Shown: piece after piece, positions 47,603 through 61,640 of the stretch
How the letters are laid out: each line of letters opens with the position of its first letter
Position numbering within the stretch: position 1 is the first letter of the stretch
From: Desulforhopalus sp.
GTDB lineage: Bacteria; Desulfobacterota; Desulfobulbia; Desulfobulbales; Desulfocapsaceae
Assembly: GCA_030247675.1 (NCBI GenBank)
Contig: JAOTRX010000004.1
Span: forward strand, 114,910-178,909
DNA: 64,000 nucleotides
Reading direction: 5' to 3'
The notes under the pieces: model-generated
The model's database searches: none
What the model saw: only the letters and a program-made list of their open reading frames with translations
What the model was told of the DNA's origin: nothing
Program-made: the position numbers and the translations under genes

Positions 47603-47792
47603 ACGTTTCAGGCGCTTTTCTTGTCCGCCGCATTGGGGGGTACGGGCAAAAGCTTAAAAGGGAACCTCGTGTAAGTCGAGGACGGGCCCGCCGCTGTAAC
47701 CGGGTACAAATCCACGTTGAGCCACTGGGAGACAATCCTGGGAAGGTGTGGAAGATTGGCTGATCCGGGAGTCAGAAGACCTGCCTGAGGTG
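47603..47792 (+). ncRNA. Cobalamin (B12) riboswitch
   Basis: AAAAGGGAA-CCTCG-TGTAAGT-CGAGG, GCCCGCCGCTGTAA, GCCACTGGG...CCTGGGAAGG, GAGTCAGAAGACCTGCC B12-box, upstream of cbiK. Confidence 0.93.
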
Positions 47793-47917
47793 TTTCGTCG
47801 CTTATCCCGTGGAAAGGATGCTGCAATCGATACGAGGACAACAGGGACTCCCCGGATCATCAATGGTGATTCGGGTTTTTTTATTCTCCGGATCACGAGC
47901 ACCAAGGAGGATTACCC

Positions 47918-48901
47918 ATGTTGTCGCTGGCCAGCAGAGTATTGGTCGTCGCCCTTTTCACCGTTGTTGCCGCTACGTCTGCCATTGCCTCGGGTAATGC
48001 ACCTACCGAGGCAAAAACCGCCATACTTCTTGCCAGTTTTGGCACCACCGTACCGTCTGGTGTCAAAGCCCTCAACAATATCACCGAACAGGTGCGCAAG
48101 GCCTATCCGAAAACGGAGGTGCGGATCACCTTTACCTCGAATATGGTCCGTTCCGTATGGAAAAAGCGCCGCGCCGAGGCCGACAAATGGCTGGCCCAGG
48201 GCATCCCATCCGAGATTCTCCATGTCAAAAACATCATCCAGGCCATGGGTGATCTGCAGGAAGACGGTTACCGCAATATCATCGTTCAGCCCACCCATAT
48301 GTTCTATATGGAACAATCATACGACCTGACTAGCTATGTCAGCGCCCTCGGTTCGATCAAGACCCTCAAGGCCAAATGGCAGCCCTTTGATAGGGTTATA
48401 ATGGGGCGGCCAGCTCTTGGCATGCCCGGTGACCGGTACAGCTATTCCGACGATATCGACCGGGTTGTCAGGTCTCTTGCCGGCGATGTGGCAATGGCCC
48501 GCAAGGAGGGGGCGAGCCTCCTCTATATGGGGCATGGCAACGAAAACTGGTCGACTGGCATCTATGCCGAAACCGAGAAAAAGATGCGGGCAGCCTACTC
48601 GGACGTCGATACCTTTATCGGTGTTGTCGAGGGCACTCCGTCATTGGACGACCGCTTGCCGGCAATGAAGGCCGGCAAATCAAAGAAGATACAACTCCGG
48701 CCTTTTATGATCACCGCCGGGGACCACGCAGTCAATGACATGGCGGGCGAGGACAAGGATTCATGGAAATCGATACTTCAGGCCGAGGGCTTTACCGTGC
48801 AGCCGGTTCTGGAAGGACTGGGGTCGAATCCGGCCTTTGCCGCGCTCTTTGTTGAGAATATTGCCGATGCCGCCAAGGAAGGCGGTCTGACTTTGCAGTA
48901 G
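47918..48901 (+). CDS. cbiK: Sirohydrochlorin cobaltochelatase CbiK with signal peptide (periplasmic type)
   Basis: AILLASFGT, VQPTH, YMGHGN, PFMITAGDHAVNDM, LEGLG; hydrophobic N-terminal signal. Confidence 0.9.
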   Translation: MLSLASRVLVVALFTVVAATSAIASGNAPTEAKTAILLASFGTTVPSGVKALNNITEQVRKAYPKTEVRITFTSNMVRSVWKKRRAEADKWLAQGIPSEILHVKNIIQAMGDLQEDGYRNIIVQPTHMFYMEQSYDLTSYVSALGSIKTLKAKWQPFDRVIMGRPALGMPGDRYSYSDDIDRVVRSLAGDVAMARKEGASLLYMGHGNENWSTGIYAETEKKMRAAYSDVDTFIGVVEGTPSLDDRLPAMKAGKSKKIQLRPFMITAGDHAVNDMAGEDKDSWKSILQAEGFTVQPVLEGLGSNPAFAALFVENIADAAKEGGLTLQ

Positions 48902-49003
48902 CCAGGCAACCGGCTAAGCCTGGTGGTGCACTCCAGGAGGGTGGTAAGCGGCAGTGCCGTCCGCACTCCTCTTTAGCGGAAACATTGGAAGGAAGGTAAA
49001 AAA

Positions 49004-49729
49004 ATGCAGGGAACATTTTATGTGGTTGGTGTGGGGCCGGGAGATCCGCAGCTCATGACTTTGAAGGCGGCGGCAATCCTCAAAAAATGTCCCGTCTGGT
49101 TTGTCCCATCGGCCTTTGAAAACGGCGGCAGCATGGCCCTGAAGATCGCCTCGGGGGCCGTGGAGCAGAAAGGGAAAACTATCCTCAGTCATCGTTTCCC
49201 GATGAAACAGGTGCACCGCGGCCAACCGGCCGATCCCGAGGTAAAAAGCGCCTGGCAGGAAGCGGCCAAGACCATTATGAGTCATCTCCAGGAAGGCCGG
49301 GATGTGGTGTTCCCAACCCTGGGCGATCCGGCCATCTATTCAACCGCTTACTATGTCTGCGAAACCCTTCAGGAATACGGCTCGCCCTTCAGGGTTGAAA
49401 TTGTTCCCGGGGTCTCGGCCATTGGTGCCTCTTCCGCCGCCGCCACCGTGCCGCTGTGCCTGGGCGATGAGCGGCTGGTGGTCATTCCGGCGACCTTTGA
49501 AAACGAGCGCATCCGCGAACTGCTGAACCTCTGTGACGTGGCGGTGTTTATGAAGGTACATACGGTCATGGAACGCCTGGTTGGTTTGCTCGATGAGTTG
49601 GGGCTTGCCGACAAGGCGGTACTCGTCGAACGGTCAAGCCTTGAAGACCAGAAGATCTGGACCAATGTCCGTGAGGCGGTCGGCCGGGAAATCCATTATT
49701 TCTCGACGATGGTAGTACGCAAGGGATGA
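49004..49729 (+). CDS. cbiL: Cobalt-precorrin-2 C20-methyltransferase
   Basis: FYVVGVGPGDPQLMTLKA, FPM, TLGDPAIYST, IVPGVSA, FMKV, YFSTMVV. Confidence 0.95.
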   Translation: MQGTFYVVGVGPGDPQLMTLKAAAILKKCPVWFVPSAFENGGSMALKIASGAVEQKGKTILSHRFPMKQVHRGQPADPEVKSAWQEAAKTIMSHLQEGRDVVFPTLGDPAIYSTAYYVCETLQEYGSPFRVEIVPGVSAIGASSAAATVPLCLGDERLVVIPATFENERIRELLNLCDVAVFMKVHTVMERLVGLLDELGLADKAVLVERSSLEDQKIWTNVREAVGREIHYFSTMVVRKG

Positions 49730-49852
49730 GAGGCTCTGCGGTGTCCGACAAAAAAAGGGACGAGATCCTGGCAGAGAAAGCCAAGGAGGCTTTCACACGC
49801 TGCGGCAATTGTGCCCAAGCATCGTTTGCGGTTCTTCAGGATGCATTCACGC
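49726..49852 (+). pseudogene. 5' fragment of a C_GCAxxG_C_C-family redox protein
   Basis: AKEAFTRCGNCAQASFAVLQDAF resembles this family's N-terminus; family-like sequence stops at about 49852, where reverse-strand intI sequence begins. Confidence 0.6.
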
Positions 49853-50432
49853 TTGATATCATCCACCCCAAGCAGCTTTGGGCCTTTCCTTTCTACATAT
49901 GTTTGGAAACTGCGGGTGCATGACATGTGGGACTCCAAGGTTCTTACTGAATCATGCCGCAATTGAAGCCTGCTTTCATACTCAGTTCTACCCGCCGCCA
50001 GTCGGCTCCAGTCAATTTTGGGGTTTCCGGCATCTTTTCGCCGGTTGCCTGGATTATGACTTTTCCCTTCCGCGCATCTAATTGTCCTTGAGTTCACCCG
50101 CTTTCTTTGTTATGAAAAAGTGTGCCTTCCTCTTTTATCAAGTTGTTGTTCTGCTGATTTTCATAATTTGGCGAGTATCGCTGGGAAGCTGCATCTTCCA
50201 GAATAGTTCGATGGCCTTTTGCGCTTGCAGCCGCAACATTTCAGGTTGATTGATTTTGCCTAGTTTTTTGATAAAGACAAGAACCGAAGATTTCCAAGTG
50301 AATGAGGGTTTATCGTTCAGGGAAAAATCCCAGTAATACCGCAACTATTTTATGAAAAAATGGCAGTCTTCGATAGGAACACCCTGATCGTTGTTAAAAG
50401 GAGAGAGGTTGTTTGCAATAGCACGTGGAAGC
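49852..50432 (-). pseudogene. intI: Integron integrase, N-terminal remnant (catalytic domain deleted)
   Basis: IK*LRYYWDF...FIKKL...QAQKAIELF (in-frame TAG at 50345-50347), then after a frameshift LQLRHDSVRTLESHMSCTRSFQTY..K.PKLLGVDDIK, resembling the LRHYS.RT..Y..W SAM-like domain; divergent from an attC array. Confidence 0.75.
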
Positions 50433-50477
50433 AGGGCCCTGTGGTTATATAGGTATAGGTACCACCTGTTTTCTGCA

Positions 50478-50526
50478 TGTTATAGCTGAGTTGAGCAGCT
50501 TGTCTGCTCGTACGAAACTTATGCCC
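50478..50526 (-). promoter_or_regulatory. Conserved element upstream of intI containing the GAGCAG-ACAAG-CTGCTC palindrome
   Basis: Lies between the intI 5' end and the putative attI; a near-identical copy sits at 22858-22905. Confidence 0.55.
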
Positions 50527-50564
50527 TTGTGGTATATGCAGTTAGTAGACGACCTGCATCCTCC

Positions 50565-50591
50565 TGAATGCGTTGTATAGAAGCGTTAGGC
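50565..50591 (+). mobile_element. Putative attI site (core GTTAGGC at 50585-50591)
   Basis: First exact GTTRRRY core after the intI 5' end with no upstream attC-type left arm; AATGCGTT...AAGCGTT short direct repeat. Confidence 0.5.
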
Positions 50592-50610
50592 TCGGAGATA
50601 GAGGACTATA

Positions 50611-50736
50611 GAATAACTTGTTGAACTTTTGATATTGCATGAAAAATACAAGAAGATAGGCGCGTATTTTGCTTTTCTAGTTAATATCACTTTTATGGGT
50701 GTTGGCTGGAAGGTTCCGTCCAGTTAATACCTTGTT
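50611..50736 (+). mobile_element. Degenerate attC site, core interrupted by a MITE
   Basis: R'' GAATAAC, L'' GTT-G-AACT, L' AGTTAAT, 5-bp spacer, GTT; the R' continues as GTTAGTC after the MITE. Confidence 0.5.
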
Positions 50737-50835
50737 GAGTCTGTAGAAAAAGGCAATTCTTGATGAATTGGCTTATATGATATCAAGTAGTTACGAGTCA
50801 CAAAAAGCTCGTTTTCGGGGTTTTTCTACAGACTC
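50737..50835. mobile_element. 99-bp MITE / internally deleted IS
   Basis: Perfect 15-bp terminal inverted repeats GAGTCTGTAGAAAAA / TTTTTCTACAGACTC flanked by a GTT direct repeat. Confidence 0.8.
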
Positions 50836-50857
50836 GTTAGTCCTCTGGAGATAGCCC

Positions 50858-51067
50858 ATGAAAAAGGCAGAATTCGAGCAGGCGGTTCGAGATGAGCTTC
50901 GGCGCGTCCCAGCTGAGGAACGTCGAACCTGGGATGACAACAAACTGTTTTTCTGGTTCATGAAGGCTAAGAGCGATAACCCGGACCTCACCTGGGACCG
51001 GTGCCCAGGTGATCCTTGGCAATGGGTCCCTGGCATTTGTAAATACTTGATCGGCCCAAATGTTTGA
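50858..51067 (+). CDS. 69-aa hypothetical cassette protein
   Basis: RBS GGAG after the GTTAGTC core; stop codon just before an attC. Confidence 0.7.
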   Translation: MKKAEFEQAVRDELRRVPAEERRTWDDNKLFFWFMKAKSDNPDLTWDRCPGDPWQWVPGICKYLIGPNV

Positions 51068-51073
51068 ATATCG

Positions 51074-51176
51074 GACGAACCCCACGTTCAACTCGGACCC
51101 AACCGACACTGGCAATATTCATGTCTCTGTTCATCTTCCGGTCTCCGATTGGCCCGGTTAACTTCTTTCGTTGGGT
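51074..51176 (+). mobile_element. attC site
   Basis: R'' GACGAAC, 5-bp spacer, L'' GTT-C-AACT, L' GGTTAAC, R' GTTGGGT (exact GTTRRRY). Confidence 0.8.
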
Positions 51177-51184
51177 ATTTAAAA

Positions 51185-52351
51185 ATGGCAAACACGGTAT
51201 TCATTCTTGGAGCTGGATTTTCTTTCGACGCAGGTATTCCTCTCCTCGGAAGATTCATAGAAAGGATGCTTTTGATTGCTGCTGAAAGAGATAAAACTAC
51301 AGGTAAGCTTTCTGGAAATGATAGGAAGCTGTTTGACAAAGCCTTAGATATTCGCGACTCGATGGATGGCTACCATGGGCGAATCTCTTTTGACGACAGG
51401 AACATTGAGGATATCCTTTCTATGCTGGCCTTTAGCGTAATGGGAACTACTGGCCTAAGGAAACCTCGTGCGAATCTTGATGCGTTTATACAAGCGATCT
51501 CGAGAACTATTGAGCTAACTTGCGCGGTTAAGCACCCAGGACCACCGATTGAAAAAAAATCAGGTTTTACAATTGTTGATACTGGACCTGCAATGTACCG
51601 CCGTTTTTGGCAAGCGCTCTTTAAGGCATATAATACTGGCATGGACTTTCCTTGCCTTATTACTTTCAATTATGATCTGGTCCTAGAGCGAAGTCTTTTT
51701 CAGGTTTTAATTAACAAGATTTATAACCCCTCTAAAAACCGTTGTCCTTTTGACAGCTTCCACTTGAATTATTCGTATAAAAACTCGCCAAACTTCTATG
51801 GTGCAATTGAGCCATGTCAATATCAGTTACCAGAACACTCGTATGTACATGGAACAAAGGTCATTCCGAAAGAGGTGCAGGGGGGCAAACACTTGAATAT
51901 CGATATACTTAAGTTGCATGGGTCTCTGAATTTCTCAAGGCCAATAACAAGCGAGCATAATCAAAATCCATGTGAAGTAGTGGAGAACCCATATATATTG
52001 CCGCCTATATCAAACAAGTCTGCTAGTCCCGCAGGTGAAGAAATTTGGGGAAGAGCGCTTACTGAACTAAGAAATGCCAAGAATGTTGTTTTTATTGGGT
52101 ATAGCTTACCAACAACTGACATCTATATGCAATTCTTTATTAAGGCGGCTCTTGGACCAAATAAAGGTTTAGAAAAAGTGATCGTGATCGATCCTGTTTT
52201 TAATGAACCTTCTCAAGAATGTGAAGATATGAAAGTTAGGTATAAGAATTGTTTCTCTGAGCAACTCCGTCGTCGTCTTTCCTTTTCACCAATTACGGCA
52301 GCAAAGTTCGTTGGTGAACTAAGCAAAGATCCTGGTGCATATATTTATTGA
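51185..52351 (+). CDS. SIR2-like (SIR2_2) NADase-domain cassette protein
   Basis: VFILGAGFS, ITFNYD, KLHGSLN, LPP, VFIGYS sirtuin motifs; AT-rich; start placed after the attC crossover. Confidence 0.85.
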   Translation: MANTVFILGAGFSFDAGIPLLGRFIERMLLIAAERDKTTGKLSGNDRKLFDKALDIRDSMDGYHGRISFDDRNIEDILSMLAFSVMGTTGLRKPRANLDAFIQAISRTIELTCAVKHPGPPIEKKSGFTIVDTGPAMYRRFWQALFKAYNTGMDFPCLITFNYDLVLERSLFQVLINKIYNPSKNRCPFDSFHLNYSYKNSPNFYGAIEPCQYQLPEHSYVHGTKVIPKEVQGGKHLNIDILKLHGSLNFSRPITSEHNQNPCEVVENPYILPPISNKSASPAGEEIWGRALTELRNAKNVVFIGYSLPTTDIYMQFFIKAALGPNKGLEKVIVIDPVFNEPSQECEDMKVRYKNCFSEQLRRRLSFSPITAAKFVGELSKDPGAYIY

Positions 52352-52412
52352 TAGCTCAGTAGGTTGGGACAGATACCAAAATGATAAATGAAGGGACAGG
52401 CAATATATACTG

Positions 52413-52460
52413 CACTAACAATATAATGCACCGGGTGAGCCGGTGATCATAATGTTACCA
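52413..52460 (+). mobile_element. Short (48-bp) attC site
   Basis: CACTAAC-aatat-AAT(G)CACC-GG-gtgag-CC-GGTGATC-ataat-GTTACCA. Confidence 0.7.
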
Positions 52461-52479
52461 TTTTGAACAAGGAGAAAAA

Positions 52480-53508
52480 ATGAAGGTATTTCTTAGCTGG
52501 TCTGGAACCAGAAGTCATAAAATTGCGATGGTATTTAGGGATTGGTTGCCATCAGTAATCCAAGAAATCACTCCCTACGTGTCCTCCGAAGATATTGATA
52601 AAGGAGCACGGTGGAGTACAGATATCGCGAAGGAGCTTGAGGACTCAACATTCGGCATTCTTTGTGTCACAAGAGAAAATATTAATGCGCCTTGGCTTAC
52701 TTTTGAAGCAGGTGCATTATCAAAGACTATGGACAAATCATTCGTTAGTCCATTTCTATTTGATATCAAACGTTCTGAAGTAGATGGACCTATTCTCCAG
52801 TTCCAATCCACAATTTTTGAAAAAGATGACATTCAAAAACTTGTGAAAACGTTAAATAAGGCGTGCGGCGAAAATGGATTATCGGATGAGCGTCTCGGGA
52901 AGGCCTTCAATGTTTGGTATCCAACACTCGAAAAAGACCTAGAAGGACTTAAACAGCAGGTAGTACCTGACTTGAATCCTGAAAAACAAGAGCATATTGC
53001 TTCACCAGATTCGCAGGAGATCCTGGAAGAAATATTAGAACTTTCACGAAGCAACCAGAAGTTAATTAGGAATCCTGATGGTGCGTTTGGATCGCAGCTA
53101 GAGGAAACCCGTCAAATTGTAAAAGAAATATTGGATAGGTTGGATCGTCCGAACCCATTTAAGGGGAGAAATCCTAGGCGAATTCATCCGATGATGATCG
53201 AGGAAGTAATGCATTCTACTGCAATGAGTATGAATGGCTATGTTGGCATTCAAATGACACTGGCGCTGATCCGCCAAGATTTTCCATGGGCGTATGAGTC
53301 TGGTATGGAAGCAATCACCATTTTAAAATCTCCTGCTTCAAAAGAGGACAAACAAAGCGCATTAGAAGGCTTCTATCGTATTCTGGAATTATCCTTTGAT
53401 CATCCTATCATGCGGGATCAATACGAGAACAACAAGGAAATCCATATGATAGCAAGGGAACTACCTCGTTTGCTTAAGCGTGCCTTTGATAAAGCTCTTG
53501 AGGGCTAA
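52480..53508 (+). CDS. TIR-domain cassette protein with C-terminal extension
   Basis: MKVFLSWS, SSEDIDKGARW, GILCVT, PWLTFEAGAL (catalytic Glu position); the stop TAA lies within the attC R'' box. Confidence 0.85.
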   Translation: MKVFLSWSGTRSHKIAMVFRDWLPSVIQEITPYVSSEDIDKGARWSTDIAKELEDSTFGILCVTRENINAPWLTFEAGALSKTMDKSFVSPFLFDIKRSEVDGPILQFQSTIFEKDDIQKLVKTLNKACGENGLSDERLGKAFNVWYPTLEKDLEGLKQQVVPDLNPEKQEHIASPDSQEILEEILELSRSNQKLIRNPDGAFGSQLEETRQIVKEILDRLDRPNPFKGRNPRRIHPMMIEEVMHSTAMSMNGYVGIQMTLALIRQDFPWAYESGMEAITILKSPASKEDKQSALEGFYRILELSFDHPIMRDQYENNKEIHMIARELPRLLKRAFDKALEG

Positions 53509-53593
53509 CAAAATTATCAATCAGACCGCATGAACGTTGGTGCCACTATACGACAAGTTCATTGGTGAACTCTGGTTACAATAGCCGTGGGTG
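53503..53593 (+). mobile_element. attC site with mutated R' core
   Basis: R'' GGCTAAC, L'' TAT-C-AATCAGA, L' TCTGGTTACA, inner ATGAAC/GTTCAT repeat, R' GTGGGTG. Confidence 0.6.
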
Positions 53594-53852
53594 GTAAATA
53601 GGGCGTTTATTAGTTCGAAAGCCGAAAAATCCAGATCAACAATGTAAATTCATATCCAGGGCAAGGTTTCCCATCGCTATGCTCCAATTTCTGCTTGCTT
53701 TTTGGCTATTGTGCCGGTCATGTTTCGTTGCCCGCAGTCGTCGAGTTTTTTGCTGGGTTTGATTTTCATTGGAAAGGCGCAAAGTTCTCGTTTGGCTCTT
53801 TCCTTTCTTTGAGAGTCAGGATTAGATTCCATTTCTTGGTCGAATAAGTTAG

Positions 53853-56735
53853 ATGTCGACGCCCTTAATGAAAAATTATAGAAAAAGAGGAGCTATAATG
53901 TCACCGTATTCAGCCCAGGGTATCACTTCGATAAAAATAAAAAGACTGGCAAGAATTCTCTTTCATGATTTACGCAAAAATCCTTTACTAACTTTACTTT
54001 CCGATAACTCCATAAAAATAGAAATCGAGTATTTATTTTTCTTCTTGCGTTGGATTATGCCTTTAGCATTGCTTGTTAGATTTATATTACATGAGGACAA
54101 GGATGGCGATAAGGGCTTGACTCTTTATACAAATTACGATTTCTATATCATATTAATATTTTTTATAATTTACTTGTTTTTCACGCATAAGAAATTTCAT
54201 TCTCTAAATAATCAAACCGAGGCATCGGAAAAGAACTGGGGCAAATTCACATCGGTAGCTGTATTCTTCGATATTTCATTCATTACTGCATTTTATGTAC
54301 TTGCTAATAATCCAAGATCTGAAATCCCAATAATGTATTTTATCCCCCTTGTTTGGTCAGCAATTTATGTACCATTAAAGAAAAGTCTTTTTGGAATAAT
54401 AAGTGTTGGCATATCATTTACAGTCGGTACAGGTATTATTGGTTATCAATCATTGAACTCAACTAATTTAATAAATGAATTGATTGAAATGACACTAGTG
54501 TTAATGCCGAAATTGCTATTCTTACCGATAGTAGTTCTCTTTCTTTTATGGAATACAATTAACCGCAAACTCCAAGAGAACATGTTGCTCGCTTTGTTTG
54601 AACATTCTCCAGAAGGTATTTCATTCATTGGTCAGAAAAGCTGCAATCTCACAAGACCAGGGAGTGATATGCAGATATTAAATTTAAATGCCGCCCAGCA
54701 ACGACTAACACCTAATGCAAAAACAAATAATAATAGTTGTAGAGAAGAATTTCAGTCCTATACACTGGAAAGAACGAGTGTTTGTCCATGGTGTCCTGCT
54801 GAAAAAATCTTAGACAATAAAGCAAAACACAGTAGGAGCCTAACAAAGAACATTTCGCCATTAGGGCATCCAACCGCAGAAGAAATTTCGTTTTCTGATG
54901 CAAGTGCAACACCTTGTTATGACGAAAATGGTCATGTCATCGCTGCTGTAAAATTTGTAAAAGATGTAACGCCACAAGTATATACTGCATTTTTTGCAAC
55001 AGAAGTACTACGTCTTCAGACAGAAGAAGACGTTCTAATAACAAGTTCAGAATTTTTCAGAAAGATGTACAAGGCGGAAAGTGCAAGAATTTTAAGATTT
55101 GATATAAATAATAGTAATATACTTGGGATAGTAGCACAATCGGATATTAATAATCCATCTGGAAGTATTGTAACGGAGTTTACAGAATCTATATCAAATG
55201 AGGTAAAGCGTTTTTTTTCCGAATGCCCATCAGAAATAGATATTATAAATCGAAAGAGAGATCTTAAAGTGGGTGTCAAAATCACTGGTTGTTTAGATTG
55301 GGAGGAATATTGTTATCCAGCCTCAAAGAACCCCAATATTATGGAAATTGCGGTGAAGTTTAAATTAGAACGTGGCTTAATAATACCAATAAAAAGTGAT
55401 GATGCCTTGCTCGGTTTTGTTTTGGTAGACCAACCAGGGCATAATGTTCGTTTATCCCAATTAAATATTTTACAAGGGCAGTTGGCAGCTCAAATTGCAT
55501 TTCTAGCTGTAGACAGGGCCAAATCTTTCAGCGCAAAAAATGAAGAAATAAACACAGGGGAAAAGAAAACTAAGAGTTTGAATGATATTCAGACTCTTTG
55601 TGTGGATATGTTGAAATCAGGAAATAAAGATGAGATTTTAGGTAAAGCGTTGATCGGCACCACCTCTGGACCTGGATTAGGGTATTCTCGGGCTATATAT
55701 CTTAGCTTAATTGATAATACTTTAAAATTCGAGCTTGGAATAGGACCGATTACTGAAGAAGAAGCTGGCCACGATTGGCAAAATAGTAAAGATATTGACA
55801 ATATGTCAGAATATTATCAGAGTCCCAATTGGCTAAGTGGTATTCAAAGTAACCACATTACTACCCAATGCAAGATATGCCCCCATATTCTATTGAAAGA
55901 TATCGAAAACAGTGTTGTTGTTCAATCAATTAATAATATCCAAGGCAATAAAGGTGGAAAAGACGACTCATTTAGAAAAACTCACCTAGCGATTCATTTT
56001 GGAATTAATAGTGACTTTGTTGTTTCCCCTGTATTCTCAGGTAAAACAGTTATAGGAATAATAATTGCAGACAAGAGGCACCACCTTAATAACAATATTT
56101 CATTTGATAAAATTCAACATTTGTTTTTTCTAACTGCTTTTACTGGCGCATGCGCTATTAGCAGCCAATTAAATAGAGATCGGAGTGATGCACCTGAACG
56201 TTTCCTTCTTGAGGTACTTCGATTATTACAATCTAAGTATGATAATGAAAAGGTAAATGTTTACAAATTATATAACGTGGCCTTAAAGGTGGGTGAAAGG
56301 TTAGGTTGTACAAAAAATGAGCTTAGAGCAATCAAGGTATCTTCTTTGGCAATATGTTATACACATTTCTGTTTTCCTGATTCTTTGATTTTCGGTGATG
56401 AGAGATTAGAATCCCCAATGGATAATAGTTACATATTTAATCATCCGGACCGTGCTCGTGGGTTGATTAGACAAATTTGTGGAGACGAAGAAATTGCAAA
56501 TTCAGCCTATCAGCATACTCAAATTCTAGGGAAATATCCTGAAAGCTCGTCTTACCCCATTAAGGTTGCGAGAATATTGGGAATATGTGAAGGTTACTTG
56601 GCAATAACTGAACCAAAAAATTACCGTAAAGAAACCTCCTTAGATCATGATAAAGCGATAGAAGAATTACGGATAAAGTTAGGGACAAATGAAAATCTAA
56701 TTATTGATGCTTTAGATTTATCTATGAGAGAATAA
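53853..56735 (+). CDS. Multi-TM PAS-GAF-GAF protein with a degenerate HD-GYP-like C-terminus
   Basis: About 5-6 TM segments; PAS-like with CPWCP; GAF-like (GLGYSRAIYL; GIIIADK); C-terminal NHPDRA...QHTQILGKYP...ARILGICEGYLAITEPKNYR follows the HD-GYP layout without the HD pair; very AT-rich. Confidence 0.6.
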   Translation: MSTPLMKNYRKRGAIMSPYSAQGITSIKIKRLARILFHDLRKNPLLTLLSDNSIKIEIEYLFFFLRWIMPLALLVRFILHEDKDGDKGLTLYTNYDFYIILIFFIIYLFFTHKKFHSLNNQTEASEKNWGKFTSVAVFFDISFITAFYVLANNPRSEIPIMYFIPLVWSAIYVPLKKSLFGIISVGISFTVGTGIIGYQSLNSTNLINELIEMTLVLMPKLLFLPIVVLFLLWNTINRKLQENMLLALFEHSPEGISFIGQKSCNLTRPGSDMQILNLNAAQQRLTPNAKTNNNSCREEFQSYTLERTSVCPWCPAEKILDNKAKHSRSLTKNISPLGHPTAEEISFSDASATPCYDENGHVIAAVKFVKDVTPQVYTAFFATEVLRLQTEEDVLITSSEFFRKMYKAESARILRFDINNSNILGIVAQSDINNPSGSIVTEFTESISNEVKRFFSECPSEIDIINRKRDLKVGVKITGCLDWEEYCYPASKNPNIMEIAVKFKLERGLIIPIKSDDALLGFVLVDQPGHNVRLSQLNILQGQLAAQIAFLAVDRAKSFSAKNEEINTGEKKTKSLNDIQTLCVDMLKSGNKDEILGKALIGTTSGPGLGYSRAIYLSLIDNTLKFELGIGPITEEEAGHDWQNSKDIDNMSEYYQSPNWLSGIQSNHITTQCKICPHILLKDIENSVVVQSINNIQGNKGGKDDSFRKTHLAIHFGINSDFVVSPVFSGKTVIGIIIADKRHHLNNNISFDKIQHLFFLTAFTGACAISSQLNRDRSDAPERFLLEVLRLLQSKYDNEKVNVYKLYNVALKVGERLGCTKNELRAIKVSSLAICYTHFCFPDSLIFGDERLESPMDNSYIFNHPDRARGLIRQICGDEEIANSAYQHTQILGKYPESSSYPIKVARILGICEGYLAITEPKNYRKETSLDHDKAIEELRIKLGTNENLIIDALDLSMRE

Positions 56736-56846
56736 GACTATGGAAAGTTTCTTGAAAAAATTTATCACATTGATGACAAAAACAATAATATTTTCTCGTT
56801 TATTAGTTTTACAATTTTGGAGTGGAACGAGGGCCACTTTGCGAAT

Positions 56847-56894
56847 TTTCAACAATAAAATTCACCAGACAAGCTGGTGATTTTACCGTTATCT
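56847..56894 (+). mobile_element. Short (48-bp) attC site
   Basis: TTTCAAC-aataa-AAT(T)CACC-AG-acaag-CT-GGTGATT-ttacc-GTTATCT. Confidence 0.7.
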
Positions 56895-56912
56895 ATTTTT
56901 TGGAGCATTTGA

Positions 56913-57959
56913 ATGCAAATTGAAAAAAGATATCAGGTTTTTATTAGCTCCACATACCTTGATTTAGAGCTAGAGAGAAATGAGGTGATGCAAGCGCTTT
57001 TAGAGCTTGAATGTATGCCTGCAGGTATGGAACTTTTCCCGGCGGCGAATGATACTCAATGGGATTGGATTAAAAAGGTAATACTAGAATCAGATTATTA
57101 CATTGTTATGGTTGGTGGCCGATATGGCACTATTTCACCAGCTACAGGCTATAGTTACACTGAAATGGAATATCGGTTTGCTTTGGAAAATGATATCCCC
57201 ACAATTGGTTTTATCAGGAATAAAGCTGAAGAAATTCCTCACAAATTTTGCGAAACTGATACTGAGAAAACAAAGAAATTAGAATCATTTAAAAATTTGG
57301 TTAAAACGAAGCTTTGTAAATTTTATGATTCGCCATCAGATTTAGGAGCAAAGGTTAGCAGAAGCATAACGCAATTAAAGAAACAATATCCTGCTGAAGG
57401 CTGGGTAAAAGGAAAGGTTTTAAAAGAACTACCATCTTCTGAAGATTTATTCAAACTCAAAAAAGAAAATGATAACCTTAAAAGTCAAATAGCAGAACTA
57501 GAGAAGAAAATTGATTCAAAATTCGAAAATTATTCAAGCGGCAACGATACTGTTGATATCAAATTCAATTTCATTAGAAAAAAACTTGATCCTTCAACTG
57601 GCGGTTTCAAGAAAATTGGGGATGAAATTAAATTTTCTAGATTTACTTGGGATCAAATTTTCTACTTCGTTGGTGGTTCAATTTTTAATAAGGAAAGATA
57701 TTTGCAATTAAAATTTGTCGAGTTAATTGAGGAAAAAGAAAGAATAAAACTTGAAGCCCAATACAGCGATGAAAGAATATATGATTTTAGTGTATCGTCA
57801 TCTGTATTTAGGAAAATAATTTTTCAATTAAAAACACTAGAATTAATACATGTTAGCGATCAAATTGGGCCAGATGAATATTTCGGCTTAACCAAAAAAG
57901 GCCATAAGCTATTAGAGCAATTGGCCGCGATTCCTAAAGGTGATTGCAAAATAGAATAG
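56913..57959 (+). CDS. DUF4062-domain cassette protein
   Basis: RYQVFISSTYLDLELER, AGMELFPA, SDYYIVMVGGRYG, SYTEMEYRFA, then a coiled coil and a C-terminal winged-helix-like end. Confidence 0.85.
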   Translation: MQIEKRYQVFISSTYLDLELERNEVMQALLELECMPAGMELFPAANDTQWDWIKKVILESDYYIVMVGGRYGTISPATGYSYTEMEYRFALENDIPTIGFIRNKAEEIPHKFCETDTEKTKKLESFKNLVKTKLCKFYDSPSDLGAKVSRSITQLKKQYPAEGWVKGKVLKELPSSEDLFKLKKENDNLKSQIAELEKKIDSKFENYSSGNDTVDIKFNFIRKKLDPSTGGFKKIGDEIKFSRFTWDQIFYFVGGSIFNKERYLQLKFVELIEEKERIKLEAQYSDERIYDFSVSSSVFRKIIFQLKTLELIHVSDQIGPDEYFGLTKKGHKLLEQLAAIPKGDCKIE

Positions 57960-57964
57960 TATCT

Positions 57965-58086
57965 ATATTACCATGCCTTTCAGCTCGACTCGTTTCGCTC
58001 GCGTCTGCGGAGGAATAGGGTCGGGTCTTGAAATTTGCAGAACCCATGATATCAAAAAACAAGACCTGACCCTCAGCTCGTTCATT
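57965..58086 (+). mobile_element. Disrupted attC containing a REP-like inverted repeat
   Basis: Left arm CATGCCTTTCAGCTCGACTCGTTTCGCTCGCG, then AGGGTCGGGTCTTG (58017-58030) / CAAGACCTGACCCT (58060-58073), then GTT at 58080. Confidence 0.5.
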
Positions 58087-58119
58087 GATATTTGTTCACC
58101 AGAGCAGTGTCAATATTTA

Positions 58120-58208
58120 AAATAACAATCCCATTAACTCAGACGGGAAGAATGTTTGCGGCCTGACGGGCTAGCTCGGTGGCCCTCTGGTTACGGGTAG
58201 CGTTGTGC
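58120..58208 (+). mobile_element. attC site
   Basis: R'' AAATAAC, L'' CAT-T-AAC-T-CAGA, L' TCTGGTTACG, 6-bp spacer, R' GTTGTGC. Confidence 0.75.
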
Positions 58209-58235
58209 TTTTAGAATAGCAAAGAGGTGATCATA

Positions 58236-58781
58236 ATGGATTCAAATGTTGCTTCAGCTCTTATCTCAGGCATTTGCTCGATTATTTCTGCTTTTGGAGC
58301 CGTATATCTCAAGGAATATATGGATGCTCGGAAGACCCTGTCAACAGAGGTAAAACCGACGCAAGCACCTATCGAAGTACTTCAAGCAGAAGTTTCTCCA
58401 TCTTCTTTTAAAAGAAACTCGCGCACCTTTTGGCGGCCATTATTTATTATCATTGGCAGTTTCGTATTCGGTTTAGTAACACGATCCTTACGCCCAATTT
58501 TTAATAGCGGCACACATTGGGAATCCTTAATAGCGCTAATTGTTCTCATACTCTTCGCATTGGCTATCTCAATATTTCATAGGCGACATGGATACCAGAT
58601 AGGCTTTCAACTTGAAAATTTTGCAATGTGGACAGGGTGGGCTTCGGGTTGGAGTCTGTTTCATGGAAGCATTTGGGGAGATGTATTGGTGGTGACTATC
58701 GCTTGGTGGTTTGGTTGTGCATTAGTGGGCGGTTTATTAGTGTCAATTCGCAGAAATAGAGGCGCACAACAACGGCATTAA
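58236..58781 (+). CDS. Hypothetical integral membrane cassette protein
   Basis: RBS GAGG; one N-terminal and about four C-terminal hydrophobic segments; the stop lies inside the next attC. Confidence 0.75.
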   Translation: MDSNVASALISGICSIISAFGAVYLKEYMDARKTLSTEVKPTQAPIEVLQAEVSPSSFKRNSRTFWRPLFIIIGSFVFGLVTRSLRPIFNSGTHWESLIALIVLILFALAISIFHRRHGYQIGFQLENFAMWTGWASGWSLFHGSIWGDVLVVTIAWWFGCALVGGLLVSIRRNRGAQQRH

Positions 58782-58824
58782 GGCGACGGCAAAAAGCCGC
58801 CGCGCCTTATACCGGACGTTTCGC
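58764..58824 (+). mobile_element. attC site (61 bp)
   Basis: GCACAAC-aacgg-CAT(T)AAGGCG-ACGGC-AAAAA-GCCG-C-CGCGCCTTATA-ccggac-GTTTCGC. Confidence 0.9.
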
Positions 58825-58847
58825 ATTTCATCAATTTCAGGCCGACG

Positions 58848-59203
58848 ATGGTTAAGGAAACCAACAAGATCGATTTTATTGAGTTTCCGGCGCAGGACGT
58901 CAAAGAAATCGCTTCGGTAAAGCGGTTCTACGGTGATGTATTTGGGGGTCGTTCAAAGGCTGGGGGGAAGACTATATAGATACAAAAAGTAGCGGGCTTA
59001 GTAGCGGTTTCAATGCTGATCCACAGCATCGGCCGAGCAAACCGTTGGTGGTCGTATACAGCCAAAATTTGGAGCTTACCCGTTCGAAAATACTCGATGC
59101 AGGCGGAAAGGTGACCAAAGAGATATTCTCTTTTCCGGGAGGCAGACGTTTTCACTTCACTGACTTGGCTGCCAACGAACTCGCAGTCTGGTCTGATCAA
59201 TGA
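58848..59203 (+). pseudogene. VOC/glyoxalase-family cassette gene with a 1-bp frameshift
   Basis: KIDFIEFPA...KRFYGDVFG, frameshift near 58945, then SFKGWGEDY...PLVVVYS...AGGKVTKEIFSFPGGRRFHFTD..ANELAVWS; not in the ORF track. Confidence 0.8.
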
Positions 59204-59250
59204 ACCCCAGAAATAGGGACAGAAATTCATCCGTTTGCCAAAGAGATTGC

Positions 59251-59730
59251 ATGCAACTTCCAGACGAAAGTATCGTTGAGAAAGCCACCGTCGAAGATGC
59301 TGAAGAAATACTTGCCCTGCAAAAAACTGCGTATGTAAGTGAAGCTGAATTAATCGATGATTTTACAATACCGCCCTTGCATCAGACCATCGATGATATC
59401 ATTTCTGAGTTTAATCATCAGGTAATTTTGAAGTTTAAACTCGAAAAGAGAATTATTGGTTCAGTTCGATGCTATCTGGAAAAAGGAACGTGTTATATAG
59501 GCAAATTGATTGTACATCCTGACTATCAAAATCTTGGCATAGGCACAAAACTTTTACGTGCAGCAGAATGTCAATTTCAGCACGCAGAGCGATATGAATT
59601 ATTCACAGGCGAAATGAGCAAGAGAAACCTGCATATATATGAGAAGAATGGTTACCGGGTTTTTTATAGTAAAATAATTTCGCAAAAACTGACTTTACTG
59701 TTTCTGGAAAAGATAAACAAGAAAGCATAA
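59251..59730 (+). CDS. GNAT family acetyltransferase (cassette)
   Basis: EEILALQKTAY, IIGSVR, IGKLIVHPDYQNLGIGTKLL, NLHIYEKNGY; the stop lies in GCATAAC. Confidence 0.9.
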   Translation: MQLPDESIVEKATVEDAEEILALQKTAYVSEAELIDDFTIPPLHQTIDDIISEFNHQVILKFKLEKRIIGSVRCYLEKGTCYIGKLIVHPDYQNLGIGTKLLRAAECQFQHAERYELFTGEMSKRNLHIYEKNGYRVFYSKIISQKLTLLFLEKINKKA

Positions 59731-59816
59731 CAAGGGCATCAGCCTCGCTCCCGAGAGCAGTGTTTTACTGGACTCGGAAGTTCAGTTTCAGCGGCAGGTT
59801 ACCTCTGCAGATATTT
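59725..59816 (+). mobile_element. Degenerate terminal attC site
   Basis: R'' GCATAAC-aaggg-CATCAGCC...GGTTACC-tctgca-GATATTT (R' mutated). Confidence 0.5.
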
Positions 59817-60164
59817 CGGTCAGAGTACAATTAATCGTTCTTTTTCCGCCAGCTTACCGGACGACCCGGTTTCTTCGCCTGTATCCGCCTGCCTTTAACA
59901 CCGCGAATTCTTATCGAATTCAATACCGTATCGTATTCGTCCGTTCTTGCCTTTTTCCTTTCTTCGGCCCTATAATCGGTAAGTACCGCGATTTGCTGCA
60001 AGGGGTGCATTCCCTTGATGGTTGAGTTAAATGGTTAATTTCAAAAAGGATATCCCGAATCATGGTTCTTTACGGCAGATTTTCAGGAGTACGGCACGGA
60101 TCTTGGTCGATTAGCTGGTCTGCTTGAACGCCACAGCCAGCAATAACCTTTAGGAGGAAAAGGA

Positions 60165-61634
60165 ATGGAAAAGATTTGGCAGCAGAAATTGGTGTGGGTG
60201 GACACTGATATCACCATCGGTCATAAATCGGGCCTGTTCAGCTACTGCGATGTCGATGACGGATATGCCCTTACCGCCTTGCTTCGCTCCGAGCAGGTGG
60301 AGGTGATCGGTGTCAGCTCCACCTTGGGCAACACCGACGAAATCCGCGTTTCCACCGGGATCGCCCGCGATTTTCTTGGCAAGTATGGACCGAACAGCGT
60401 ATCCGTCTATCAGGGGGCGGCCGCCCGGCTTCCCAAGGATCTTGCCCAAACGCCGACCAACGAGGCGGTCGAGAAGTTGGCGGATTTGCTAAAAAACAAC
60501 CGCTTGACCATCCTTGCTATCGGAGCGGCCACCAATATCGCCACCCTGCTCCTCAAATACCCAGAAGCCGCCGCAGGTATCGACGAAATCGTCCTCGTCG
60601 CCGGCCGCAGAAATCTGGACGAACATTTCATCTCCGGCCACCATCAACCCAAGCCTTTCCGCGACCTGAACTTCGAGTTCGACCCGCAGGCCTTCGAGGT
60701 GCTGCTGCAATCGAAACTCACGTTGGCCCTCGTTCCCTACGAAGCCTGCCGTCAGATGTGGATCCGCTTGGGGGATCTGTCGCGCATCGGCAAGGCAAAC
60801 AAGGTGGGGCATTTCCTGGCCGAACATTCTCTTGGCTGGATCACCGAATGGGAGGTGGTCTTCGGCGCCAAGGGTTTCAACCCCTTCGATCTGGTTGCCG
60901 CCGGCTACGTCATCCGTCCCGAACTTTTTTCTGCCCGTTCCTGGCAGGCGACCATCCAATATGGTCCGGACGATACCGCACCGGGCAAGACCAAACCCTA
61001 TCTCGTCTGCAACGATTCCATCACCTGCGGACGGACGGTCAACTACTGTGTGGGCATCGCCGAAAGCTGCCCGGCGTTCCTGCTTGAGCGGATCTGCACC
61101 CACGATATGGCTGCCTTCGTAGTCGGTCAATCCCACATCAACGTAGTTGTTCCCGACATCCAGGAGGCCAGCGAATTCTACGGGCGGGTTCTCGGTTTTC
61201 AGCAGGCCTTCGACCAAGACGGCAACAAGATGGATTATGCCGGTGTCGTAATGGAACCTTTTGCCCTGGATGCTGGAATTTTAAAAGGAGGCGTCAATGT
61301 CGACGTCCGCTTCCTCAAACATCCCCAGGCCGAGATCTATCTTGAGCTGATGGCCTACCACGCCCCAAAGGGCAACCAGAGTCTGCCGCCGCAACCGAAG
61401 ACCTACGACGTTGGGGGCGTGCGGCATATCGCCCTGGAAGTCGCCAACTGCCGAGAGGTCTTCGACTACCTCCGTGGTCAGGAAGGTGTCACCATGATCA
61501 ATACCGATGCCGCCTACCGACCGGTCAAACTTGACGGTTTTCCCATCACCTTTTTCTATTGGATCGATAAATACGGAATCCAATGGGAAATGGAAGAAGG
61601 CCGGCGGATCGGCATGTCACGGGGTATCGTTTAG
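60165..61634 (+). CDS. Nucleoside hydrolase (IU-NH) fused to a C-terminal VOC/glyoxalase domain
   Basis: VWVDTD...DVDDG, LGN, LAIGAATNIA, DLNFEFDP, FDLVAA; then SHINVVVPDIQEASEFY...VLGF, LELMAY, RHIALEV, IDKYGIQWEMEE. Confidence 0.8.
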   Translation: MEKIWQQKLVWVDTDITIGHKSGLFSYCDVDDGYALTALLRSEQVEVIGVSSTLGNTDEIRVSTGIARDFLGKYGPNSVSVYQGAAARLPKDLAQTPTNEAVEKLADLLKNNRLTILAIGAATNIATLLLKYPEAAAGIDEIVLVAGRRNLDEHFISGHHQPKPFRDLNFEFDPQAFEVLLQSKLTLALVPYEACRQMWIRLGDLSRIGKANKVGHFLAEHSLGWITEWEVVFGAKGFNPFDLVAAGYVIRPELFSARSWQATIQYGPDDTAPGKTKPYLVCNDSITCGRTVNYCVGIAESCPAFLLERICTHDMAAFVVGQSHINVVVPDIQEASEFYGRVLGFQQAFDQDGNKMDYAGVVMEPFALDAGILKGGVNVDVRFLKHPQAEIYLELMAYHAPKGNQSLPPQPKTYDVGGVRHIALEVANCREVFDYLRGQEGVTMINTDAAYRPVKLDGFPITFFYWIDKYGIQWEMEEGRRIGMSRGIV

Positions 61635-61640
61635 ATTGGG

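What the first reader, a model, noticed from the sequence alone, without database searches (positions are those of the whole stretch)
50585..59816. Decayed chromosomal integron whose cassette array is rich in defence-like domains
Seen: a putative attI and about nine attC-like sites with R''-spacer-L''(extra base)...L'-spacer-R' architecture. They separate co-oriented AT-rich single genes, several with stops inside or beside R''. Three cassettes carry SIR2, TIR or DUF4062 domains. Known: these folds recur in anti-phage NAD-depleting or nucleotide-cleaving systems, and integron arrays are recognised reservoirs of small defence genes. Inference: a defence-cassette library in a sulfate-reducer lineage that may hold undescribed single-gene systems.
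Basis: partly seen in the sequence, partly recalled or inferred. Interest (0 to 1): 0.85.

Follow-up and report, generated by a model that had tools for sequence, protein, structure and literature searches.

The report
Decayed integron array of NADase defence genes
A 10-kb foreign, AT-rich island in a sulfate-reducer-like genome is the integrase-less remnant of an integron cassette array whose genes include three different NAD-destroying anti-phage enzymes; this is a further example of a recently published kind of element, not a new kind.

Summary
The finding is partly right. The island is real: about 49.93-59.85 kb, 34-45% GC against about 57% in the flanks. It holds seven intact co-oriented ORFs and one frameshifted ORF.

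Only three of the "about nine" attC sites hold up: 52413-52460, 56847-56894 and 58764-58824, all on the + strand. A motif scanner calibrated on 12 class-1 attCs finds exactly these three in the whole 64-kb window. A covariance model built without window sequence ranks them as its top three hits. Two more sites are recognisable relics. The rest fail, and the proposed attI is unsupported.

No integron integrase lies anywhere in the window, so this is a CALIN-type (integrase-less) array. Close homologues of the TIR and SIR2 genes sit in genuine cassette arrays in other metagenomes.

- The DUF4062 gene is a homologue of Swarozyc, a portal-activated NADase (PDB KpSwz, E 2.5e-45, catalytic Glu kept).
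- The SIR2-like protein keeps its catalytic residues and folds most like defence SIR2 NADases.
- The TIR protein matches a PADLOC model at 4e-116.

Integrons as defence-gene libraries were published in 2025. This is a new member of a known kind, of modest interest.

The parts
49726..49923 (+). Truncated C_GCAxxG_C_C-type gene (65 aa, CGNCAQA motif); marks the left edge of the low-GC island
   Evidence: ORF list and translation. GC falls from 0.56 to 0.44 here. The family name rests on the motif read by eye; Pfam gave no hit.
50481..50536 (+). 54-nt two-hairpin dispersed repeat of the host genome (REP-like); not an attC
   Evidence: Word depth is 13,000-17,000 against 93-120 in the flanks in run X1. 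A second copy lies at 22858-22905. At least 120 metagenome contigs hold its core.
50858..51067 (+). orf69, small ORF of unknown function
   Evidence: no family match
51185..52351 (+). SIR2-like protein (388 aa), predicted NADase
   Evidence: PADLOC SIR2 and Aga_SIR2 models, best 4e-11. At least 533 homologues of about 395 aa. GAGxS, N162, D164 and H245 are invariant. AlphaFold model pLDDT 88; best folds are SIR2-HerA, PsSIR2, KomC, SPARSA, DSR2 and ThsA.
52413..52460 (+). attC site b (48 nt, minimal loop): CACTAAC-AATAT-AAT[G]CACCGG-GTGAG-CCGGTG-ATC-ATAAT-GTTACCA
   Evidence: Scanner 8 of 9. CM R2 13.6 bits, E 0.68, third-best hit in the window.
52480..53508 (+). TIR-domain protein (342 aa) with a helical C-terminal domain
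   Evidence: PADLOC PDLC03016 'TIR-TM' 4.1e-116. Pfam TIR_2 27.8 bits. At least 4233 homologues at 59-86% identity across phyla. E76 invariant.
53503..53593 (+). Decayed attC c: R'' GGCTAAC overlaps the TIR stop codon, L box 7.5 of 9, R' reads GTGGGTG instead of GTTRRRY
   Evidence: Read from the sequence. The homologous position in L027 carries an intact attC starting GGCTAACAAAAG.
53853..56735 (+). 960-aa membrane protein: N-terminal TM bundle, weak GAF and C-terminal HD_5-like matches; function unknown
   Evidence: all Pfam matches are below the gathering score
56847..56894 (+). attC site d (48 nt): TTTCAAC-AATAA-AAT[T]CACCAG-ACAAG-CTGGTG-ATT-TTACC-GTTATCT
   Evidence: Scanner 9 of 9. CM R2 17.2 bits, E 0.072. 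It shares the CACCRG/CYGGTG L box with site b and with the L027 attCs.
56913..57959 (+). DUF4062 (NIR) protein, Swarozyc homologue, predicted phage-activated NADase
   Evidence: Pfam DUF4062 1.7e-25. PDB 10wc/11cq/11cv KpSwz E 2.5e-45 over residues 3-253; KpSwz catalytic E97 aligns with E86 here. Function of the family.
58227..58781 (+). TM184, small multi-pass membrane protein of unknown function
   Evidence: A 202-nt metatranscriptome contig lies at 58550-58751.
58764..58824 (+). attC site f (61 nt), the most canonical: GCACAAC-AACGG-CAT[T]AAGGCG-A-CGGCAAAAAGCCG-C-CGCCTT-ATA-CCGGAC-GTTTCGC
   Evidence: Scanner 8 of 9. CM R1 14.6 bits. CM R2 20.3 bits, E 0.011, best hit in the window. Constrained fold -13.0 kcal/mol.
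58848..59203 (+). VOC/glyoxalase-family pseudogene, +1 frameshift at a G run near 58945
   Evidence: Three-frame translation. The read-through product hits Pfam Glyoxalase at 22.2 bits, above the 20.6 cut-off.
59200..59730 (+). GNAT acetyltransferase
   Evidence: Pfam Acetyltransf_7, _1 and _10
59725..59746 (+). attC 5' half only (GCATAAC-AAGGG-CAT[C]AGCCTC); no matching L'/R'. Right end of the array.
   Evidence: Read from the sequence. It resembles the 5' half of the arr-3 attC extracted. No pairing partner was found.

Best explanation
**What it is.** This is the integrase-less remnant of an integron cassette array (a CALIN, in IntegronFinder's terms). It sits in the chromosome of a Desulfobacterota-like bacterium from a wastewater culture. 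Cassettes were once captured by IntI-mediated recombination at the G|TT of folded attC sites. That step is inferred from the anatomy.

**State of decay.** Three attC sites are still well formed. At least two have decayed: one has a point change in R', and one is cut to its 5' half. Neighbouring cassettes are therefore now fused into two-gene blocks. No integrase or provable attI remains nearby, so any further movement would need an IntI supplied in trans.

**Cargo.** At least three cassettes carry stand-alone enzymes built on three different NAD-cleaving folds.
- The SIR2-like protein keeps its N, D and H catalytic residues.
- The TIR protein has an invariant Glu76.
- The DUF4062 protein is a Swarozyc homologue with Glu86 at the catalytic position.

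**Likely mechanism.** Each probably works as a single-protein abortive-infection system. A C-terminal domain senses a phage product; for Swarozyc this is the portal protein. The N-terminal enzyme is then released and depletes NAD+, and the infected cell stops before phage are released.

**Shown and inferred.** Shown here: the attC architecture, the homology, the conserved catalytic residues, and homologues that are cassette-borne elsewhere. Inferred: past IntI capture, NADase activity, and phage triggering.
For: **The island and the missing integrase**
- The GC drop and the co-oriented ORFs are clear.
- No IntI was found by tblastn or by three-frame reading.

**attC sites**
- Three canonical attCs were found by a scanner calibrated on 12 real attCs. 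They are the only strict hits in 128 kb of both strands.
- The chance expectation is 0.135 per strand.
- The same three are the top hits of covariance model R2.
- Each R' lies 19-24 nt before the next start codon.

**Cassette origin of the genes**
- The TIR homologue at 86% identity lies in array L027, which has five attCs. One starts in its stop codon and uses the same CACCRG L box.
- The SIR2 homologue lies in array L152, which has near-identical attCs after each ORF.
- TIR, SIR2 and DUF4062 homologues have unrelated neighbours from place to place, so they are single-gene units.

**Function**
- KpSwz matches at E 2.5e-45, with the catalytic Glu aligned. The papers show NADase activity and abortive infection.
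- The SIR2 model's best fold matches are defence NADases, and its catalytic residues are invariant.

**Genomic setting**
- The island is one contig at the same depth as its flanks, with no alternative joints.
- It is absent from relatives that keep the nucleoside hydrolase-FIST gene pair.
Against: - Only three attCs pass. Two of them (b, d) are unusually short at 48 nt and have weak R-box pairing beyond AAC/GTT (0-1 of 4). Their R2 E-values (0.07, 0.68) are not significant on their own.
- My models are home-made and missed several real attCs with long variable regions. IntegronFinder's own model was not run.
- Sites b and d are 4.39 kb apart, beyond IntegronFinder's default 4-kb clustering distance as I recall it.
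- No attI and no integrase fragment were found, so the integron origin is inferred from the attCs and from homologues only.
- The TIR call sits just under Pfam's cut-off. Its structure model was poor (pLDDT 63).
- No defence activity was tested.
- The 960-aa, TM184, orf69, VOC and GNAT genes have no defence signal.
Confidence: 0.75

Rival explanations
1. It is the distal part of a complete, still active chromosomal integron. Its intI and attI lie outside the 64-kb window or elsewhere in the genome, so the array is not truly orphaned.
For: - The source contig is 444 kb and only 64 kb were seen (longest contig of P0001).
- Three attCs look functional.
- Contigs from other metagenomes share 50484-50736 at about 98% and diverge right after a GTT at 50734-36, followed there by AGGC or CGGC. 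This could mark a recombination point.
Against: - Cassettes point away from the left flank. There, 50 kb of ordinary core genes (cobalamin genes, a cobalamin riboswitch) and a truncated core gene abut the array, with no integrase.
- Core genes resume 400 bp after the last cassette.
- At least two attCs are broken.
- No alternative joints or excised forms appear in two DNA runs.
- The 50734 junction coincides with the edge of a palindromic repeat that has variable flanks in run X8.
Confidence: 0.1
2. It is an ordinary horizontally acquired defence island with no integron history. The three hairpins are transcription terminators or chance palindromes that happen to start with AAC and end with GTT.
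For: - Hairpins b and d read as terminator-like on the opposite strand in the consensus scan.
- Site d is followed by a T-rich stretch.
- R-box pairing is weak for b and d.
- Generic AAC...GTT hairpins are common in the GC-rich remainder of the window.
Against: - The exact spacing (5-nt and 5/6-nt unpaired spacers, one bulged base after 3 bp, then 6 bp) matches 12 of 12 real attCs and occurs nowhere else in the window.
- An independent covariance model puts these three first.
- The terminator scan found no excess over shuffles: 11 found against 8.5 expected.
- The TIR and SIR2 homologues are true cassettes elsewhere, with related attCs.
Confidence: 0.12
3. The two-gene blocks between intact attCs (orf69+SIR2, TIR+960-aa, DUF4062+TM184) are genuine two-gene cassettes that encode two-component systems. 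They are not fusions caused by attC loss.
For: Each intact attC closes a two-gene unit. Several known defence systems pair an NADase with a membrane or sensor partner (background knowledge).
Against: - Homologues of TIR, SIR2 and DUF4062 have no conserved partner in nine other contexts.
- The TIR homologue in L027 is followed directly by its own attC.
- A recognisable relic attC lies between TIR and the 960-aa gene.
Confidence: 0.08

Closest known systems
CALINs and sedentary chromosomal integron arrays as anti-phage defence libraries (Cury et al. 2016 for CALIN, from my own knowledge; Darracq et al. 2025, Kieffer et al. 2025 and Getz et al. 2025 as listed)
   Same: Co-oriented, mostly promoter-poor single genes separated by attC sites. 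Foreign base composition. Small single-gene defence systems as cargo. No integrase next to the array.
   Different: The host is a Desulfobacterota-like anaerobe, not Vibrio or an enterobacterial plasmid. The array is short and half decayed. The attCs are very short (48-61 nt). Cassettes reach 2.9 kb. No experiment was done.
Swarozyc (KpSwz), a single-protein DUF4062/NIR NADase activated by the phage portal (bioRxiv 10.64898/2026.05.01.722283; NIR domain in 10.64898/2026.09.04.749371)
   Same: N-terminal DUF4062 domain. The catalytic Glu aligns (E97 to E86). A helical stalk follows the domain. Similar length (348 aa here; the solved KpSwz chain is 326 residues). Single gene. Homology E 2.5e-45 over residues 3-253.
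   Different: The last 95 or so residues (the sensor end) do not align, so the trigger may differ. Here it lies in a cassette array, not a classical defence island.
Defence SIR2 NADases (SIR2-HerA/Nezha, PsSIR2, KomC, SPARSA SIR2, DSR2, ThsA)
   Same: SIR2 Rossmann fold with GAGxS, N/D and H residues. These are the best structural matches, ahead of sirtuin deacylases.
   Different: No HerA, pAgo, KomB or SLOG partner or domain. About 390 aa with its own inserted beta-rich region. TM-scores are only about 0.5. Sequence identity is 11-17%.
PADLOC-DB v2 model PDLC03016 'TIR-TM'
   Same: Near full-length match, 4.1e-116, covering 1-285 of 293 model positions.
   Different: I could not find which system the model belongs to or any experiment on it. 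I saw no convincing membrane helix when reading the C-terminal sequence, and the structure model was too poor to settle this.

Membership tests
Complete integron | intI gene (integron-type tyrosine recombinase) next to the array | tested here: not met
   tblastn with IntI1 gives nothing better than E 0.36 anywhere in the 64 kb. The probe itself is 100% identical to plasmid intI1. Three reverse frames upstream of the array show no recombinase motifs.
Complete integron | attI site with the recombination point upstream of the first cassette | tested here: inconclusive
   The proposed GTTAGGC at 50586-50592 is only a heptamer. A conserved-to-variable junction after the GTT at 50734-36 exists in other metagenomes. 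It coincides with the edge of a palindromic repeat.
CALIN (cluster of attC sites lacking an integrase) | At least two attC sites on one strand, close together | tested here: met
   Three sites on the + strand. Spacings are 4.39 kb and 1.87 kb. The first gap exceeds the 4-kb default of IntegronFinder as I recall it, so that program might report only the last two as a cluster.
CALIN (cluster of attC sites lacking an integrase) | No integrase within the clustering distance | tested here: met
attC site | R''...AAC and GTT...R' at the ends, 5-nt and 5/6-nt unpaired spacers, L box with one extrahelical base, size 40-200 nt | tested here: met
   Met by sites b, d and f (8, 9 and 8 of 9). Not met by the other claimed sites.
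attC site | Accepted by a covariance model of attC sites | tested here: inconclusive
   The home-made model R2 ranks b, d and f first in the window (E 0.011-0.68). It is insensitive to long attCs. IntegronFinder's attc_4 model was not available.
attC site | Recombined by IntI as a folded bottom strand | not testable with these tools
   Needs a conjugation-based recombination assay.
Swarozyc (DUF4062 NADase defence) | DUF4062 domain with the catalytic glutamate | tested here: met
   Pfam 89.4 bits. E86 aligns with the mutated E97A position of KpSwz.
Swarozyc (DUF4062 NADase defence) | C-terminal stalk and auxiliary domain of the Swz type | tested here: inconclusive
   The alignment runs to residue 253 of 348. 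The last 95 residues do not align.
Swarozyc (DUF4062 NADase defence) | Portal-triggered NAD+ depletion and abortive infection | not testable with these tools
   Known for KpSwz only.
SIR2-HerA, SPARSA, DSR and Thoeris ThsA systems | The partner gene or fused domain that defines each system (HerA, pAgo, long DSR C-terminus, SLOG) | tested here: not met
   The neighbours are orf69 and the TIR gene. The protein is 388 aa with a SIR2 region only. It is a stand-alone SIR2 family of about 395 aa.
TIR-domain NADase | TIR fold with a conserved catalytic Glu | tested here: inconclusive
   Pfam TIR_2 27.8 bits against a cut-off of 28. E76 is invariant in 38 sequences. The structure model was too poor to check the fold. 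No PDB relative by sequence.

The most novel reading that the evidence does not exclude
The stand-alone 342-aa TIR family has at least 4,000 members at 59-86% identity across unrelated phyla. The stand-alone SIR2 family of about 395 aa has at least 500 members. Both may be experimentally uncharacterised single-protein abortive-infection systems that spread as integron cassettes. The 960-aa membrane protein with GAF-like and HD-like regions, sharing the array, may be a further new defence or signalling cassette.
Probability: 0.4. Interest if true: 0.5.

Novelty: new member of a known kind. Interest (0 to 1): 0.35.

Why it matters
- It extends the 'integrons are defence-gene libraries' picture from Vibrio and clinical plasmids to an anaerobic Desulfobacterota-like lineage.
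- It shows what such an array looks like while decaying: attCs lost one by one, and cassettes fused.
- One 7-kb stretch stacks three unrelated NAD-cleaving folds (SIR2, TIR and DUF4062). This gives ready candidates for testing two large, still uncharacterised single-gene families beside a Swarozyc homologue.
- It does not change any concept.

Tried and rejected
1. **Covariance model R1** was built from six full-length class-1 attCs. It was too narrow: it missed the dfrA5, dfrA14 and dfrA27 attCs in control plasmids, and it gave only site f at E 0.23 in the window.
2. **Model R2** was built from trimmed attC cores. It handles short attCs but misses real ones with long variable regions, even some of its own seeds. 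A negative result for the other claimed sites is therefore weak evidence. I did not build a third model.
3. **Generic constrained folding** of every AAC...GTT pair is not specific. It gave 83 hits in the GC-rich remainder of the window.
4. **Synteny with relatives.** The nearest genomes are only about 70% identical in the flank protein. They keep the nucleoside hydrolase-FIST pair but not the left flank, so no empty site could be shown.
5. **Search for the same cassettes elsewhere.** No near-identical copies exist in other sequencing runs; only the two runs of the source study hold the island.
6. **The 54-nt repeat at 50481-50536 as a possible attC family.** I rejected this. It has GTT before AAC, two separate hairpins, and no R/L box layout.
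7. **TIR structure prediction** gave pLDDT 63, so I did not run a fold search on it.
8. **The PADLOC name 'TIR-TM'** could not be traced in the literature.
9. **Conserved partner genes** of the TIR, SIR2 and DUF4062 genes: none were found.
10. **tRNA and Rfam scans** of the island were empty.

Full report
**The region and its flanks**

- GC drops from about 0.56 to 0.33-0.45 between roughly 49.93 and 59.85 kb.
- Left of the drop lie cobalamin-related core genes behind a cobalamin riboswitch (47595-47802). They include a tetrapyrrole methylase at 49004-49729.
- Next comes a 65-aa stump of a C_GCAxxG-type gene (49726-49923), cut off where the GC falls.
- Right of the drop is a fused nucleoside hydrolase/glyoxalase gene (60165-61634) and then a FIST-domain gene.
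- That gene pair is conserved at about 70% identity in Desulforhopalus, Desulfosarcina and Desulfocapsaceae genomes, and none of them has the island upstream. The 'sulfate-reducer lineage' guess is therefore reasonable.
- The genes are not syntenic core genes at that distance. No closer relative was available to show an empty site.
- The island carries seven intact ORFs and one frameshifted ORF, all on the + strand.

**No integrase**

- I probed the window with an IntI1 sequence that proved 100% identical to plasmid intI1. It finds nothing better than E 0.36 in the window.
- The three reverse frames of 49700-50600, where a divergent intI would lie, show no recombinase.
- There is no tRNA gene in 45000-64000 and no Rfam match in 49700-60300.

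**attC sites: method**

No attC model was on hand, so I made two independent tests from real integrons.

- I fetched class-1 arrays from 12 plasmids and read 12 different attCs from them.
- All 12 obey one strict layout: AAC, 5 unpaired nt, 3 bp, one bulged base, 6 bp, a variable region, 6 bp, 3 bp, 5 or 6 unpaired nt, GTT. Each has at least 8 of the 9 L-box pairs.

**attC sites: results**

- Scanning the whole window on both strands with that rule gives exactly three hits: 52413-52460 (b), 56847-56894 (d) and 58764-58824 (f).
- All three are + strand, at or just after the end of an ORF (site f overlaps the last 18 nt of TM184), and each R' lies 19-24 nt before the next start codon.
- Dinucleotide shuffles of the island give 0.135 hits per strand, and none of 200 shuffles reached three on one strand.
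- A first covariance model, from six full-length attCs, was too narrow.
- A second model (R2) used the R/L cores of eight class-1 attCs and one metagenome attC, with no window sequence.

| Site | Coordinates (scanner) | Scanner (of 9) | R2 bits | R2 E-value |
|---|---|---|---|---|
| f | 58764-58824 | 8 | 20.3 | 0.011 |
| d | 56847-56894 | 9 | 17.2 | 0.072 |
| b | 52413-52460 | 8 | 13.6 | 0.68 |

- These are R2's three best hits in the window.
- R2 misses real attCs with long variable regions. It can support sites but cannot firmly reject them.
- Site f is the most canonical. It has both bulged bases and a short GC stem.
- Sites b and d are 48-nt minimal versions that resemble each other. Both have AACAATAW-AAT-K-CACCRG ... 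CYGGTGAT.

**The other claimed sites**

- After the TIR gene, 53503-53593 keeps R'' (GGCTAAC, holding the stop codon), the 5-nt spacer and an L box scoring 7.5 of 9. It has GTG where R' needs GTT. I read this as a decayed attC.
- After the GNAT gene, 59725-59746 is a good 5' half (GCATAAC-AAGGG-CAT[C]AGCCTC, much like the arr-3 attC). It has no partner strand downstream. I read this as a truncated attC at the end of the array.
- The candidates after orf69 and after the DUF4062 gene fail both the motif test and the constrained-fold test.
- The long palindrome at 50737-50839 has no attC layout.
- The array is therefore three intact attCs plus two relics, not nine. Each intact attC now closes a two-gene block.

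**Independent support from homologues**

- The TIR protein has an 86%-identical relative in a sediment metagenome contig, L027.
- That contig is a plain cassette array. It has five attCs in 9.4 kb. One starts in the TIR stop codon (GGCTAACAAAAG-CAT[G]CACCAG ... CTGGTG-ATG-CAGATC-GTTGAGC) and uses the same CACCRG L box as window sites b and d.
- A 49%-identical relative of the SIR2 protein lies in contig L152, where nearly every ORF is followed by an almost identical attC.
- My strict scanner missed the L152 attCs. This again shows that it is conservative.
- In the other contexts examined, TIR, SIR2 and DUF4062 relatives sit alone among unrelated neighbours, often defence-type genes such as Cap15-like, Mrr, OLD-family, or toxin-antitoxin pairs. 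No partner gene is conserved.

**The cargo**

- **DUF4062 protein (56913-57959).**
  - It matches the solved Swarozyc protein KpSwz at E 2.5e-45 over residues 3-253.
  - The position of the E97A mutation in that structure aligns with Glu86 here.
  - Two 2026 preprints show that DUF4062 (also named NIR) is a TIR-like NADase. They show that Swarozyc is a single-protein abortive-infection system switched on by the phage portal.
- **SIR2-like protein (51185-52351).**
  - It belongs to a family of at least 533 proteins of about 395 aa. GAGxS, N162, D164 and H245 are invariant in the 37 aligned.
  - Its model (pLDDT 88) matches the SIR2 subunits of SIR2-HerA/Nezha, PsSIR2, KomC, SPARSA, DSR2 and ThsA ahead of sirtuin deacylases.
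  - It has none of their partners.
- **TIR protein (52480-53508).**
  - It matches PADLOC model PDLC03016 at 4e-116.
  - Its family has at least 4233 members, still 59-86% identical across Teredinibacter, Chlorobaculum and Zixiibacteria. Glu76 is invariant in the 38 sequences aligned.
  - Its model was poor, and no solved relative exists by sequence.
- **The remaining genes** show no defence signal.
  - They are orf69, a 960-aa membrane protein with weak GAF and HD_5 matches, a 184-aa membrane protein, a frameshifted VOC gene and a GNAT gene.

**State in the source sample**

- Two DNA runs of one wastewater study hold the island as a single contig, at depths of 93 and 18.
- In the run where the left flank was also laid, depth is 93 for the island and 120 for that flank. 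There are no alternative joints.
- No other public run holds near-identical cassettes.
- A metatranscriptome of the same study has a contig inside the 184-aa gene.

**Left border**

- Public contigs break at 50507 because 50481-50536 is a 54-nt high-copy repeat of the host.
- Contigs from three other metagenomes share 50484-50736 at about 98% and diverge just after a GTT at 50734-36. This could mark an old recombination point.
- The same position is also the edge of a palindromic repeat that has variable flanks in another run. I leave it open.

**Comparison with what is known**

- Integron arrays as stores of small anti-phage systems were shown experimentally in 2025, for mobile integrons, the Vibrio cholerae superintegron and V. 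parahaemolyticus (references listed).
- Integrase-less attC clusters are a named category (CALIN; my own knowledge of Cury et al. 2016, and mentioned).
- This locus fits that category and adds a new host lineage and a snapshot of decay.

**Verdict**

- It is a new member of a known kind, with interest about 0.35.
- The most novel reading still open is that the stand-alone TIR and SIR2 families are untested single-protein defence systems that travel as cassettes.

Noticed in passing
window 50481-50536 (+) and 22858-22905 (-); loci L032-L151: A 54-nt dispersed repeat, consensus TAAAGCTGAGTTGAGCAGCTTGYCTGCTCAAACGAAACTTATGCCCTTTGGGTATAA. It forms two hairpins. In the source metagenome it has well over 100 copies by depth (13,000-17,000 against about 100). 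At least 120 JGI metagenome contigs hold its core. Copies are mostly solitary and intergenic, and sometimes tandem with a 54- or 57-nt period. The first 29 nt look like a CRISPR repeat, but the 'spacer' is constant. It is not in Rfam.
   Followed up: partly
window 50484-50736: A 250-bp module (the 54-nt repeat plus 200 bp) is about 98% identical in contigs from sediment, soil and other runs. It diverges immediately after the GTT at 50734-36, followed there by AGGC or CGGC. This may be a relic recombination junction or just the edge of a repeat insertion.
   Followed up: partly
window 50737-50839: A long palindrome (arms GAGTCTGTAGAAAAA / TTTTTCTACAGACTC) is flanked by GTT on both sides. A groundwater metagenome holds the same arms with a different loop and variable flanks, so it is a repeated element in its own right.
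   Followed up: partly
window 49726-49923: A C_GCAxxG-type gene is cut to 65 codons exactly where the low-GC DNA begins. The island's arrival, or a later deletion, destroyed a core gene.
   Followed up: no
window 58848-59203: A VOC/glyoxalase-family cassette gene is broken by a one-base frameshift in a run of G near 58945. Both source contigs agree with the window here, so it is probably real and not a read error.
   Followed up: partly
window 47595-47802: A cobalamin riboswitch (114.7 bits) lies upstream of + strand ORFs at 47748-48901 and the tetrapyrrole methylase gene (49004-49729), just left of the island.
   Followed up: no
window 26001-27000: A second low-GC patch (0.38 against about 0.50 around it) has no long ORF. 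I did not examine it.
   Followed up: no
window 58550-58751: A 202-nt metatranscriptome contig (depth 132) from the same study lies inside the 184-aa membrane-protein gene. It is the only island RNA seen in that run.
   Followed up: no
L152 1690-6100: A metagenome contig carries a very homogeneous cassette array: attC YCTAACAAAYCARAGGAGACCAATCAAAAA...TTTTTGATTGCTCATTTYAAACGTTA after nearly every small ORF. My class-1-calibrated scanner missed all of them because the L box has a 2-nt bulge.
   Followed up: partly
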